NCBI GenBank assembly: GCA_964016885.1
Contig: OZ024763.1
Span: 4,340,001-4,404,000 of the forward strand
Length of the DNA stretch: 64,000 nucleotides
Origin: Eledone cirrhosa
Taxonomy: Eukaryota
Direction of reading: 5' to 3'
Both the position numbers and the translations under genes were made by a program. The notes below the pieces were generated by a model. That model worked only from the letters and a program-made list of their open reading frames with translations, was not told the DNA's origin and searched no databases. Positions 38,584-61,625 of this stretch are shown piece after piece. The stretch's first letter is position 1; the number at the start of each line of letters is the position of its first letter.

Positions 38584-38884
38584 CGAGGGTAGGCTGACCA
38601 ACATACTTCATGGAATGACCAAATGAGGTTTATTTTTCAACATGCAAGATTTCACAGCTCTAGCATCACTCCTTCATAGGCTGACGAAGATACTCTCATG
38701 GAATGACCAAATGAGGTTTATTTTTCAACATGCAAGATTTCACAGCTCTAGCATCACTCCTTCATACGCTGACCAAGATACTCTCATGGAATGACAAAAT
38801 GAGGTTTATTTTTCAACATGCAAGATTGCACACCCTCGCATCACTCCTTCATAGTGAGCCTATGAACTTTTAAGCCTACCTTCG
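38584..38884 (-). mobile_element. Mariner-derived MITE with both ends and ~3 internal 88-bp units
   Basis: TA|cgagggtaggct... and ...gagcctatgaacttttaagcctaccttcg|TA. TA-flanked CGA(G/A)GG termini are typical of mariner elements. Confidence 0.8.
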
Positions 38885-39464
38885 TATATGTAAACAATGT
38901 ATTTATTTAATATACAAATAATTACTATTGCTACAGTTAAAAAATATACAAAAAATACTTTAAATTCAGTTTTTAATTCATGCAACAATTGTGTCAAAAT
39001 AGTTAAAGGAATTCGAAATAATTTTTGCACCCATTTTTGCGATTAAGTGAGATTTCGGCTCGGAGAAATTTAAGGAACTGATGTCGCTAAATCGCCAAAT
39101 CATTTACCTGCCCCGTTGCCTCATGGGGGGGTAATGGCTGCCTTTTATTTTTTAAATGATGGCAGATTCTTTAGTTTCTTTCGCAGTATCTTGTTCCTTG
39201 TTTCATATAAGTAAATAATTAAAACATTTTGGCGAGAAAGATATTAAAAAGACTGCCATGGTTTTTAAAAAATAAAAGGCAGCCATTACCCTCCCATGAT
39301 GCAACGGGGCAGATAAATGATTTGGCGATTTAGCGACATCAGTTCCTAAAATTTCCCCGAGCCGAAATCTCAAGAACGATAACTCCGTCTTTACTTAATC
39401 GCAAAAATGGGTGCAAAAATTATTTCGAATTTCTTAGTAATTATACTTACATTGTTTACATATA
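38885..39464 (-). repeat. Palindromic junction A1 (loop inverted relative to A2-A4)
   Basis: Inverted arms around the loop tcttgttccttgtttcatataagtaaat; the left arm carries extra sequence absent from A2 and A3. Confidence 0.9.
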
Positions 39465-41962
39465 CGAAGGTAGGCTTAAAGGTTCATAGGCTCACTATGA
39501 AGGAGTGATGCTAGGGCTGTGAAATCTTGCATGTTTAAAAATTAACTTCATTTGGTCATTCCATGAGAGTATCTTGGCCAACCTATGAAGGAGTGATGCT
39601 AGAGCTATGAAATCTTGCATGTGGAAAAATAAACCTCATTTAGTCATTCCATGAGAGTATCTTGGCCAGCCTATGAAGGAGTGATGCTAGGGCTGTGAAA
39701 TCTTGCATGTTGAAAAATAAACCTCATTTGGTCATTCCATGAGAGTATCTTGTTCAGCGTATGAAGGAGTGATGCTAGAGCTGTGAAATCTTGCATGTTG
39801 AAAAATAAACCTCATTTGGTCATTCCATGAGAGTATCTTGGTCAGCGTATGAAGGAGTGATGCTAGAGCTGTGAAATCTTGCATGTTGAAAAATAAACCT
39901 CATTTGGTCATTCCATGAGAGTATCTTGGGCAGCCTATAAAGGAGTGATGCTAGAGCTGTGAAATCTTGCAAGTTGAAAAATAAACCTTGTTTGGTCATT
40001 CCGTGAGAGTATCTTGGTCAGCCTATGAAGGAGTGATGCTAGGGCTGTGAAATCTTGCATGTTGAAAATTAAACCTCATTTGGTCATTTCATGAGAGTAT
40101 CTTGGTCAGCCTATGAAGGAATGATGCTAGGGCTGTGAAATCTTGCATGTTGAAAATTAAACCTCATTTGGTCATTCCATGAGAGTATCTTGGTCAGCCT
40201 ATGAAGGAATGATGCTAGGGCTGTGAAATCTTGCATGTTTAAAAATAAACTTCATTTGGTCATTCCATGAAAGTATCTTGGTCAGCCTATGAAGGAGTGA
40301 TGCTAGGGCTGTGAAATCTTGCATGTTTAAAAATTAACTTCATTTGGTCATTCCATGAGAGTATCTTGGCCAGCCTATGAAGGAGTGATGCTAGAGCTAT
40401 GAAATCTTGCATGTAGAAAAATAAACCTCATTTAGTCATTCCATGAGAGTATCTTGGTCAGCCTATAAAGGAGTGATGCTAGAGCTGTGAAATCTTGCAT
40501 GTTGAAAACATAACCTCATTTGGTCATTCCATGAGATTATCTTGGTCAGCCTATGAAGGAGTGATGCTAGAGCTATGAAATCTTGCATGTGGAAAAATAA
40601 ACCTCATTTGGTCATTCCATGAGAGTATCTTGGTCAGCCTATGAAGGAGTGATGCTAGAGCTGTGAAATCTTGCATGTTGAAAACATAACCTCATTTGGT
40701 CATTCCATGAGATTATCTTGGTCAGCCTATGAAGGAGTGATGCTAGGGCTGTGAAATCTTGCATGTTGAAAAATAAACCTCATTTGGTCATTCCATGAGA
40801 GTATCTTGGTCAGCGTATGAAGGAGTGATGCTAGAGCTGTGAAATCTTGCATGTTGAAAAATAAACCTCATTTGGTCATTCCGTGAGAGTATCTTGGTCA
40901 GCCTATGAAGGAGTGATGCTAGGGCTGTGAAATCTTGCATGTTGAAAAATAAACCTCATTTGGTCATTTCATGAGAGTATCTTGGTCAGCCTATGAAGGA
41001 ATGATGCTAGGGCTGTGAAATCTTGCATGTTTAAAAATAAACTTCATTTGGTCATTCCATGAGAGTATCTTGGTCAGCCTATGAAGGACATATGCTAGAG
41101 CTATGAAATCTTGCATGTGGAAAAATAAACCACATTTGGTCATTCCATGAGAGTATCTTGGTCAGCCTATGAAGGAATGATGCTAGAGCTGTAAGATCTT
41201 GCATGTTGAAAACATAACCTCATTTGGTCATTCCATGAGATTATCTTGGTCAGCCTATGAAGGAGATATGCTAGAGCTATGAAATTTTGCATGTGGAAAA
41301 ATAAACCTCATTTAGTCATTCCATGAGAGTATCTTGGCCAGTCTATGAAGGAGTGATGCTAGGGCTGTGAAATATTGCATGTTGAAAAATAAACCTCGTT
41401 TGGTCATTCCGTGAGAGTATCTTGGTCAGCCTATGAAGGAGATATGCTAGAGCTATTAAATCTTGCATGTGGAAAAATAAACCTCATTTGGTCATTCCAT
41501 GAGAGTATCTTGGTCAGCCTATGAAGGAGTGATGCTAGAGCTGTGAAATCTTGCATGTTGAAAAAATAACCTCATTTGGTCATTCCATGAGAGTATCTTG
41601 GCCAGCCTATGAAGGAGTGATGCTAGAGCTGTGAAATCTTGCGTGTTGAAAAATAAACCTCATTTGGTCATTCCATGAGAGGATCTTGGTCAGCCTATGA
41701 AGGAGTGATGCTAGAACTCTGAAATCTTGCATGTTGGAAAAATAACCTCATTTGGTCATTCCATGAGAGTGTCTTGGCCAGCCTATGAAGGAGTGATGCT
41801 AGAGCTGTGAAATCTTGCATGTTGAAAAATAAACCTCATTTGGTCATTCCATGAGAGTATCTTGGTCAGCCTATGAATGAGTGATGCTAGAGTTGTGCAA
41901 TCTTGCATGTGGAAAAATAAACCTCATTTAGTCATTCCATGAAAGTATCCTGGTCAGCCTAT

Positions 41963-60800: not shown

Positions 60801-61267
60801 TCCACGAGATTAACTTGGTCAGCCTATGAAGGAGTGATGCTAGAGCTGTGGAATCTTGCATGTGGAAAAATAAACCTCATTTAGTCATTTCATGAGAGTA
60901 TCTTAGTCAGCCTATGAAGGAGATATGCTAGAGCTGTGCAATCTTGCATGTTGGAAAATAAACCTCATTTGGTCTTTCCATGAGATTAACTTGGTCAGCC
61001 TATGAAGGAGTGATGCTAGAGCTGTGCAATCTTGCATGTGGAAAAATAAACCTCATTTAGTCATTTCATGAGAGTATCTTGGTCAGCCTATGAAGGAGAT
61101 ATGCTAGAGCTGTGCAATCTTGCATGTTGGAAAATAAACCTCATTTGGTCTTTCCATGAGATTAACTTGGTCAGCCTATGAAGGAGTGATGCTAGAGCTG
61201 TGCAATCTTGCATGTGGAAAAATAAACCTCATTTAGTCATTTCATGAGAGTATCTTGGTCAGCCTAT

Positions 61268-61625
61268 TCACACACACATATATATATGTATATGTATGTA
61301 TATATATATATATATATATATATATGTAATTATATGTATATATCTATATATATATGTATGTATATATATATATAGATGTATGTATGTATATATATATATG
61401 TATATATATATGTATGTATATATATATATATATATATATAGATATATGTATGTATATATATATATATCTATAGATATATCTATATATATATACATAAATA
61501 TATATATCTATATATATCTATATATATATCTATATATATATATATATATATATATATATATATATATATATATATATATATATATATATATATATTATAT
61601 ATATATATATATATATATATATATA
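61268..61625 (-). repeat. Terminal junction B3: inverted, incomplete copy of the B loop running into (TA)n
   Basis: Contains gtaattatatg then tagat, the reverse complement of the B1/B2 landmark order. Confidence 0.8.

What the first reader, a model, noticed from the sequence alone, without database searches (positions are those of the whole stretch)
38584..61625. 23-kb palindromic concatemer with two alternating hairpin junctions that both show flip/flop loops
Seen: the 88-bp array reverses direction seven times, in the order rev-A1-fwd-B1-rev-A2-fwd-(direct)-rev-A3-fwd-B2-rev-A4-fwd-B3. Head-to-head joints are always the ~510-580 bp palindrome A. Tail-to-tail joints are the microsatellite loop B in two of three cases. 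The A1 loop is inverted relative to A2-A4, and B3 is inverted relative to B1/B2. Known: alternating head-head/tail-tail concatemers with flip/flop loops are the signature of rolling-hairpin replication (parvoviruses) and of fold-back or breakage-fusion-bridge amplification, whereas ordinary satellites are head-to-tail. Inference: the array may have amplified as a hairpin-ended unit, a non-coding satellite element that copies itself by fold-back priming at two fixed termini.
Basis: partly seen in the sequence, partly recalled or inferred. Interest (0 to 1): 0.85.

Follow-up and report, generated by a model that had tools for sequence, protein, structure and literature searches.

The report
Transposon-derived palindromic satellite, tandemly duplicated
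The 23-kb back-and-forth repeat is real and is one of dozens of similar clusters, built from an 88-bp satellite cut out of a small mariner transposon and arranged around a shared palindromic joint that likely fused the ends of two foldback-type elements; the uniform direction of the joints points to ordinary head-to-tail copying rather than virus-like rolling-hairpin replication.

Summary
The layout is confirmed: 226 monomers in 8 blocks with 7 reversals. The mechanism proposed is not supported.

The 88-bp monomer is an internally deleted mariner MITE, and the outer 34 bp of each A joint are its terminal repeat. The A core occurs at about 100 places, with exact hits only from contig C22 on. 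It derives from a ~650-bp module that elsewhere forms the paired inverted ends of MITE-free elements, so A is likely a deleted end-to-end junction.

A is fixed (64 of 66 head-to-head joints). B is not: the double-ended B form is 2 of 48 tail-to-tail joints, and B3 is only the cluster's end. Adjacent A loops face the same way in 40 of 45 pairs. The longest exact inverted match is 171 bp, against 2,936 bp direct. This fits head-to-tail duplication of a palindromic unit plus rare inversions, not rolling-hairpin replication.

Still open: how A-centred palindromes, some with 11-24-kb arms, spread without fixed ends. New variant of a known kind; interest 0.4.

The parts
37919..38365 (.). TA/GA-rich microsatellite at the left boundary of the cluster
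   Evidence: TRF; sequence
38379..38577 (-). R flank: truncated piece of the middle domain that follows the MITE in other family copies
   Evidence: 94-98% to other loci; 40 scored matches on C23, C24 and C26
38578..38599 (-). Shortened right terminal repeat of the mariner MITE with its TA
38593..38854 (-). 88-bp monomers x3 (block a)
38855..39494 (.). A1 joint: MITE left TIR (38855-38888), long arm, loop in minus orientation, arm, MITE left TIR (39461-39494); separate lineage from A2-A4
   Evidence: arm and loop bins covered by raw reads X21 and X22
39495..41958 (+). 88-bp monomers x28 (block b)
41955..42196 (.). B1: double-ended (CA/TA)n tail-to-tail joint
42193..42984 (-). 88-bp monomers x9 (block c)
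42985..43553 (.). A2 joint, loop plus
43554..45575 (+). 88-bp monomers x23 (block d), ending in a direct monomer-to-monomer inversion joint at 45570-45575
45570..46952 (-). 88-bp monomers x16 (block e)
46953..47521 (.). A3 joint, loop plus (569 bp; about 220-bp arms, about 125-bp asymmetric loop)
47522..50157 (+). 88-bp monomers x30 (block f)
50154..50397 (.). B2: direct duplicate of B1
50394..51273 (-). 88-bp monomers x10 (block g)
51274..51856 (.). A4 joint, loop plus; sister of A2
51857..61263 (+). 88-bp monomers x107 (block h), with an exact 2,936-bp direct repeat starting at 54566 and 57467
61260..61625 (+). B3: single-ended B-type array terminus running into (TA)n; right boundary of the cluster, not a junction

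Best explanation
The region is a mariner-MITE-derived 88-bp satellite arranged around a shared palindromic joint A, which likely is the deleted end-to-end junction of two foldback-type elements, and the cluster likely grew by head-to-tail duplication of this already palindromic unit plus one or two inversions. Steps: (1, shown) a ~200-bp mariner MITE lies between a host module and the R flank, lost ~55 bp internally, and its interior was amplified in tandem. (2, structure shown, transposon nature inferred) the host module forms paired inverted ends of MITE-free elements on C12, C13 and C20; one intact MITE-bearing right end survives on C26. (3, inferred) two such elements in tandem lost most of their abutting outer ends, which left A. 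(4, pattern shown, process inferred) the unit [reverse array-A-forward array-tail joint] was copied in direct orientation by unequal exchange or rolling-circle copying, and the tail joint was remodelled at each locus. (5, inferred) A-centred palindromes moved between sites, mostly within a chromosome, as duplicated segments and not by cut-and-paste.
For: MITE origin: 761 exact parent-type 33-mers genome-wide; paired TIRs within 200 bp in 11 of 30 fetched loci and a direct alignment to the monomer; one 1.3-kb copy with decayed mariner transposase, PF01359 E 1e-10 and Mos1 E 5e-8. Host module: outward-facing inverted pairs on C12, C13 and C20; 8 of 26 loci show the intact outer end, each followed directly by TA/TG repeats; A-like junctions with other breakpoints occur in MITE-free copies at C13:44.00, C13:38.68, C12:49.77 and C20:31.17 Mb. 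Direct copying: 40 of 45 adjacent loops same-way, majority same-way in 12 of 14 clusters, 11 of 11 at C23:22.1 Mb. The long arm stays on its native side of the loop in 27 of 70 joints, on both sides in 4, on the other side only in 0 (39 lack it), with 1 other-side case among 4 later joints. A cores group by cluster and chromosome, with window A2-A4 one clade (93/93) apart from A1. Head-to-head joints are A in 64 of 66, while tail-to-tail joints fall into 6 classes (23 R-bearing, 13 GATGC-TA, 7 direct, 2 double-B, 2 Z-bearing, 1 unrelated). Precedent: hobo and Bari1 arrays with TIR deletions at each junction (PMC5932611 passages).
Against: No transposase sharing the host ends was found. A Merlin/IS1595-like fragment lies inside 2 host copies (E 5.5e-6, just under Pfam's cut-off), but 0 of the 29 other Merlin loci fetched carry the host end, and the 16-kb C20 copy has no transposase-like ORF by eye. 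No target-site duplication can be read, because the ends lie in (TA)n. Only 8 of 26 host loci keep the outer end. At C13:38.68 Mb the inverted match runs 1.2 kb beyond the supposed end, and C23 palindromes have arms of 11-24 kb that end at different points. Between clusters the arms diverge half as much as the loop (3.1% vs 6.5%), so some arm-to-arm correction probably goes on. The 45 adjacent pairs are not independent (21 come from 3 clusters). Uniform loops do not separate unequal exchange from circle-based copying.
Confidence: 0.6

Rival explanations
1. Hairpin-capped or circular amplicon (ODIRA-like). A acts as a standing template-switch site and self-complementary (TA)n tracts at varying distances act as the second switch. 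The expelled dumbbell is copied into an inverted-dimer circle that rolls or reintegrates at homologous satellite or microsatellite sites.
For: It predicts alternating head-head and tail-tail joints with uniform loops, a fixed A and a variable tail joint. Dispersed copies are centred on A and lack the host outer end. Giant A-centred palindromes have 97.6% arm identity over 18 kb at C23:9.39 Mb. 29 of 56 cluster ends lie within 150 bp of a TA-rich tract against 21% background, but many of these share an ancestral end. The mechanism is described in yeast (PMC10766183 passages).
Against: No fresh mirror symmetry: the longest exact inverted match in the window is 171 bp and only 9 of 63 joints have identical arms. 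23 of 48 tail joints are asymmetric (R on one side only), which a dumbbell end does not give directly. No replication origin and no extrachromosomal form was tested.
Confidence: 0.2
2. No transposon host. The module is ordinary duplicated host DNA in a palindrome-prone region; A is a one-off fold-back junction carried along in segmental duplications.
For: The module is confined to a few contigs (26 exact hits on C12, C13, C20 and C26). Inverted matches extend into flanks. No transposase or TSD was found. Unrelated palindromes are nearby (window 8511-8897; C24:5.919 Mb 2.9 kb).
Against: The module keeps a common outer end followed by (TA)n in 8 of 26 loci. It recurs as outward-facing pairs around unrelated 1-16-kb interiors whose flanks mostly differ.
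Confidence: 0.13
3. One reading: a non-coding element with two fixed hairpin termini, A and B, replicated by parvovirus-like rolling-hairpin synthesis.
For: Alternating joints and a very stable A hairpin. A1 and A2 are mirror-oriented about B1. 5 of 45 adjacent loop pairs are opposite.
Against: Loops are not random (40 of 45 same-way). B is not a fixed terminus (2 of 48). Arms are not regenerated from each other. In-register mirror differences across the 7 joints are 5.4-7.7 per monomer against a background of 5.6-8.1. The array has no coding capacity, and I ran no search for a Rep-type nickase.
Confidence: 0.04
4. Assembly artefact from fold-back (chimeric) long reads.
For: The exact 2,936-bp direct repeat in block h may be an assembly duplication. 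No read spanning the whole array could be laid.
Against: The four A copies differ by 1-4% and monomers by 8 of 88 positions on average. There is no long exact inverted match. The family occurs on 4 or more contigs with locus-specific lineages. Raw short reads of two other samples (X21, X22) cover the arm and loop bins of A at about 12-104 summed depth over 39033-39455.
Confidence: 0.03

Closest known systems
Tetris foldback element and TIR-220 satellite of Drosophila virilis (PMC4079207, passages)
   Same: Non-autonomous element with long modular inverted ends; tandem repeats inside the ends expand into kb arrays; variable middle domain; clustered distribution; no transposase found.
   Different: Here the repeat comes from a second, nested transposon (mariner MITE); no 8-10-bp TSD can be read; most copies are centred on the end-to-end junction and have lost the outer ends.
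Tandem arrays of TIR transposons (hobo, Bari1, P) in Drosophila (PMC5932611, passages)
   Same: Head-to-tail arrays whose junctions carry one shared TIR deletion and expand by unequal exchange or rolling-circle copying.
   Different: The unit here is mostly inverted repeat, so the array looks like an alternating palindrome; the same junction is shared by about 100 sites on several contigs.
Macro-dyad satellite arrays of Tribolium madens (PMC13081366, passages)
   Same: Satellite subarrays in opposite orientation around highly conserved inversion sites, spread as cassettes with variable monomer numbers.
   Different: Those are multi-megabase, putatively pericentromeric, and their inversion sites derive from the satellite itself; here the clusters are up to ~60 kb, total about a few thousand monomers (985 exact 34-mers), and the joint is foreign sequence.
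AAV2/parvovirus rolling-hairpin concatemers (PMC11575299, passages)
   Same: Alternating head-head and tail-tail joints with hairpin-capable loops.
   Different: Rolling-hairpin products have random terminal orientation and fixed termini at both ends; here orientation is uniform (40 of 45) and only one joint is fixed.
ODIRA inverted amplicons of yeast (PMC10766183, passages)
   Same: Inverted copies joined at interrupted inverted repeats; intermediates can integrate at other homologous sites.
   Different: ODIRA junctions use 2-14-bp repeats and need an origin; here one joint has ~220-bp arms and is inherited, and no intermediate or origin was tested.
Microsatellite-targeting non-autonomous MULEs (SaTar, PMC5907723 abstract; MuTAnT, PMC4486113 search listing)
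   Same: Ends embedded in TA microsatellites; multimeric arrays.
   Different: Those are plant elements; the superfamily of the host module here is not established.

Membership tests
Tc1/mariner MITE (source of the monomer) | Short paired TIRs flanked by TA | tested here: met
   Paired TIRs within 200 bp in 11 of 30 parent loci by a strict pattern; TA ends visible
Tc1/mariner MITE (source of the monomer) | A longer copy with the same ends encodes a mariner transposase | tested here: met
   L063: PF01359 E 1e-10, HTH_48 E 0.0014 (below cut-off), Mos1 E 5e-8; frame broken. A first Pfam scan of the C-terminal piece alone found nothing relevant.
Foldback-type element (host module) | Long modular inverted ends around a variable non-coding middle | tested here: met
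   interiors 1-16 kb, unrelated apart from shared small modules
Foldback-type element (host module) | Tandem subrepeats inside the inverted ends | tested here: met
   88-bp arrays in both arms, e.g. C26:1.86 Mb with an intact outer end
Foldback-type element (host module) | 8-11-bp target-site duplication and fixed termini | tested here: inconclusive
   Intact outer end in 8 of 26 loci, all in TA/TG repeats where no TSD can be read; flanks sometimes also inverted
Foldback-type element (host module) | Cognate transposase in an element with the same ends | tested here: inconclusive
   None found; only Merlin-like loci (30 of 150 matches fetched) and ORFs of a few host copies were checked
Merlin/IS1016 (host module) | TIRs starting GG, 8-9-bp TSD, TIR shared with transposase-bearing copies | tested here: not met
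   The outer end starts CATTAT; 0 of 29 other Merlin loci match the host end; definition from PMC8101967 passages
Rolling-hairpin concatemer | Random (flip/flop) orientation of terminal loops | tested here: not met
   40 of 45 adjacent pairs same-way
Rolling-hairpin concatemer | Two fixed hairpin termini | tested here: not met
   A in 64 of 66 head-to-head joints; double-ended B in 2 of 48 tail-to-tail joints
Rolling-hairpin concatemer | Initiator nickase and free hairpin-ended intermediates | not tested
   No Rep search was run; intermediates need bench work
ODIRA-type amplicon | Inverted junctions at interrupted inverted repeats | tested here: met
   A, B1/B2 and the symmetric TA-centred joints at C23:4.67 Mb
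ODIRA-type amplicon | Resident origin and extrachromosomal dumbbell or inverted-dimer circle | not testable with these tools
   Needs eccDNA, 2D-gel or nascent-strand data

The most novel reading that the evidence does not exclude
A fossil transposon end-to-end junction has become a reusable fold-back centre. It nucleates hairpin-capped or inverted-dimer circular amplicons that pick up 1-24 kb of neighbouring DNA, close at (TA)n tracts and reinsert megabases away. This would make a transposase-free, self-spreading family of palindromic duplicons in an animal germline, a natural ODIRA-like mobile unit.
Probability: 0.2. Interest if true: 0.72.

Novelty: new variant of a known kind. Interest (0 to 1): 0.4.

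Why it matters
The case shows that an alternating-orientation satellite with conserved hairpin joints needs no special replication mode: direct duplication of an internally palindromic, transposon-derived unit gives the same picture, and loop orientation tells the two apart. The full ancestry is still present in one genome: autonomous mariner, MITE, 88-bp satellite, foldback-like host, junction and giant palindrome. That makes it a tractable model for how conserved inversion sites in macro-dyad satellites arise. If the circle or hairpin route of dispersal holds, it would be a germline example of inverted-amplicon spread so far described mainly in yeast and tumours (recalled).

Tried and rejected
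Empty-site search for the host without the MITE: 0 matches at up to 2 mismatches; uninformative. Merlin as the host's transposase: rejected as likely cargo. Helitron/Helentron host: a small hairpin in R near 38400 is not conserved and R continues in other copies; no fixed 3' end was seen; not pursued. Hammerhead or other structured RNA: Rfam on 38300-43700 gave 21 matches, all below gathering scores. Gene association: 21 ORFs of 120 aa or more in 1-38600 are repeat translations or unremarkable by eye. TSD at the ends of four giant C23 palindromes: none by eye. TA-tract enrichment at cluster ends, 29 of 56 vs 21%: weak because ends are not independent. Reads could be laid only on 38375-39770, so B1, B2, the direct joint and the 2.9-kb duplicate have no read support either way; no listed piece spans the whole stretch. 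No RNA holder was listed, which says nothing on expression. Earlier findings of the scan: three look-ups returned nothing. Paper searches listed no description of this family; the library lacks most subscription journals and repeat databases were not searchable, so the family may be catalogued. I did not read any paper's supplements.
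Full report
1. Observation. The window is G000:C24:4340001-4404000 of a 3.0-Gb assembly. Anchor mapping gives eight monomer blocks: rev 3, fwd 28, rev 9, fwd 23, rev 16, fwd 30, rev 10 and fwd 107, or 226 monomers with seven reversals. The four head-to-head joints A1-A4 are 640, 569, 569 and 583 bp. A1's loop is inverted against A2-A4, and A3 folds at z -54. 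B1 and B2 are double-ended microsatellite joints in the same orientation. B3 carries a marker 12-mer the other way but has no reverse array behind it, so it is the end of the cluster. On the left a shared flank R extends the feature to 38379.

2. The monomer. A 33-mer from the monomer's first half, followed by any base other than T, has 761 exact matches in G000, the listed ones on C1 and C2. Most of the 30 fetched loci are ~200-bp elements with mariner-type ends; 11 of 30 pass a strict paired-TIR pattern. The monomer aligns to the MITE interior with ~55 bp removed, and it repeats through a short direct match between the inner parts of the two TIRs. The undeleted interior has formed ~140-bp tandem repeats elsewhere (L068-L071). 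One 1.3-kb copy, L063, holds a broken mariner transposase (PF01359 E 1e-10; Mos1 E 5e-8); a first Pfam scan of its last piece showed nothing relevant. The outer 34 bp on each side of A are the MITE's left TIR with TA, and 38578-38599 is a shortened right TIR. The deleted monomer is restricted: 985 exact 34-mers, none listed before C20.

3. The A core. An arm 32-mer has 211 matches at up to 1 mismatch, or about 100 joints, and the exact ones start at C22 (100 of 211 listed). A loop 33-mer has 122 matches and also finds MITE-free relatives on C12 and C13. In those relatives the loop and arm are the inner part of a ~650-bp module that occurs as outward-facing inverted pairs around unrelated 1-16-kb interiors. 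Of 26 loci with an exact module motif, 8 show the intact outer end, each running straight into TA/TG repeats. Tandem copies of these elements have produced A-like junctions with other breakpoints at least four times (C12:49.77, C13:38.68, C13:44.00, C20:31.17 Mb). At C26:1.86 Mb a MITE-bearing copy keeps an intact outer end: arm, forward array, R, microsatellite, reverse array, arm, outer end. I infer that A is the fused, centrally deleted junction between two foldback-type elements, and that B-type joints are what is left of the element's middle. The host's superfamily is unknown. A Merlin-like transposase fragment lies in two host copies, but 0 of 29 other Merlin loci fetched share the host end (30 of 150 matches fetched).

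4. Tests of rolling-hairpin replication. In AAV2, rolling-hairpin alternating repeats show random terminal orientation and rolling-circle concatemers uniform orientation (PMC11575299 passages). Among 70 A joints in 24 fetched regions, adjacent loops are same-way in 40 of 45 pairs, and same-way pairs are the majority in 12 of 14 clusters; three clusters supply 21 of the pairs. The long arm lies on its native side in 27 joints, on both sides in 4, on the other side only in 0, and is absent in 39; one other-side case appeared among 4 joints fetched later. Head-to-head joints are A in 64 of 66 cases. The 48 tail-to-tail joints fall into six classes, and the double-ended B occurs twice, both in this window. 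The two arms of a joint differ by 2.9%, against 3.1-3.3% between clusters, and are identical in 9 of 63 (7 of 70 joints with truncated arms were dropped). In-register mirror differences across the window's joints equal background; only f24-f27 vs g6-g9 across B2 are mirror-related. The longest exact inverted match is 171 bp and the longest direct one 2,936 bp. A tree of 50 A cores (truncated cores left out and the two longest clusters cut to three each) groups by chromosome and cluster; A2-A4 form a clade (93/93) apart from A1. The window is therefore best read as two lineages joined in mirror orientation, followed by direct duplication.

5. Results against my reading. No cognate transposase and no TSD were found. 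Inverted similarity sometimes runs beyond the supposed host ends. A C23 subfamily has A at the centre of giant palindromes whose arms are shared among loci megabases apart: about 18.5 kb at 97.6% at 9.39 Mb, about 14 kb at 11.80 Mb, 11-13 kb at 7.38 Mb and 19-24 kb at 14.41 Mb. Their ends differ and show no TSD by eye. These copies lack the host outer end, so cut-and-paste does not explain their spread. Arms diverge half as fast as the loop (3.1% vs 6.5%), which suggests occasional arm-to-arm correction. Uniform loops are also what a dumbbell-derived inverted-dimer circle would give (ODIRA; PMC10766183 passages). That route stays open at about 0.2, though 23 of 48 tail joints are asymmetric.

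6. Artefact check. Copy divergence, locus-specific lineages and raw short reads from two other samples over the arm and loop of A (X21, X22) argue that the family and the A joint are real. Reads were laid only on 38375-39770 and come from all family copies, so the exact order of this cluster and the 2,936-bp exact duplicate are unverified.

7. Comparison. The cluster is built like Tetris/TIR-220 (PMC4079207, passages) and like hobo or Bari1 arrays with junction deletions (PMC5932611, passages). It resembles Tribolium macro-dyads with conserved inversion sites (PMC13081366, passages) and, loosely, cichlid satellite blocks separated by inverted transposon-like elements (PMC13652916, abstract). 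Ends in (TA)n recall SaTar and MuTAnT elements (PMC5907723 abstract; PMC4486113 listing). It fails two defining tests of a rolling-hairpin concatemer and the tested features of Merlin (PMC8101967, passages). Eight paper searches listed no account of this family; supplements were not read and repeat databases could not be searched.

8. Verdict. It is a new variant of a known kind, a transposon-derived palindromic satellite, with a traceable nested origin and an unexplained mode of dispersal. Interest 0.4; novel case (circle- or hairpin-mediated palindromic duplicon) probability 0.2, interest 0.72 if true.

Noticed in passing
G000:C23 near 7.38, 9.39, 11.80 and 14.41 Mb (L197-L220): Giant palindromes with 11-24-kb arms centred on the A joint; arms are patchworks of host repeats shared between loci and contain an inner ~0.6-1-kb inverted pair about 11 kb apart.
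   Followed up: partly
G000:C12:49769300-49780900 (L111-L112); C13 34-45 Mb; C20:31.17 Mb: MITE-free long-inverted-end elements with unrelated, patchwork interiors (Pack-element-like), in tandem arrays with their own palindromic junctions; ends in (TA)n.
   Followed up: partly
L116:4541-4948 + and L114 near 6437-6647 -: Merlin/IS1595-like transposase fragments inside two host elements; the genome also holds Merlin-like copies with open frames of about 330 aa.
   Followed up: partly
window 54566-60400: Exact 2,936-bp (33-monomer) direct repeat, either very recent or an assembly duplication.
   Followed up: partly
window 14342-21267: Unrelated 32-bp minisatellite of about 212 copies with strong strand skew and stop-free frames over 2,000 codons.
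   Followed up: no
window 8511-8897 and 28479-28592: Two further unrelated palindromes (387 bp at 93%, 114 bp at 91%); the first abuts a (TA)n tract.
   Followed up: no
L068-L071 (G000:C1:214.62 Mb); also L072, L074, L075, L077: The same mariner MITE has independently formed ~140-bp tandem repeats of its undeleted interior, so it is prone to seeding satellites.
   Followed up: partly
L081 about 5180-5410 (G000:C24:4.900 Mb, minus strand): An exon-like stretch with AG/GT borders lies about 1 kb from a family cluster, suggesting that cluster sits in an intron.
   Followed up: no
C23:9.39 Mb palindrome arm, about 12.9-15.4 kb outward of the 3-kb core margin (L208 and L210-L211): A nearly complete CR1/L2-like LINE coding region (endonuclease and reverse transcriptase by eye) within the region matched by both arms.
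   Followed up: no
window 47120-47165 (A arm): The arm contains CCCATGATGCAAC, reminiscent of a ZNF143/Staf site (motif recalled, not tested).
   Followed up: no
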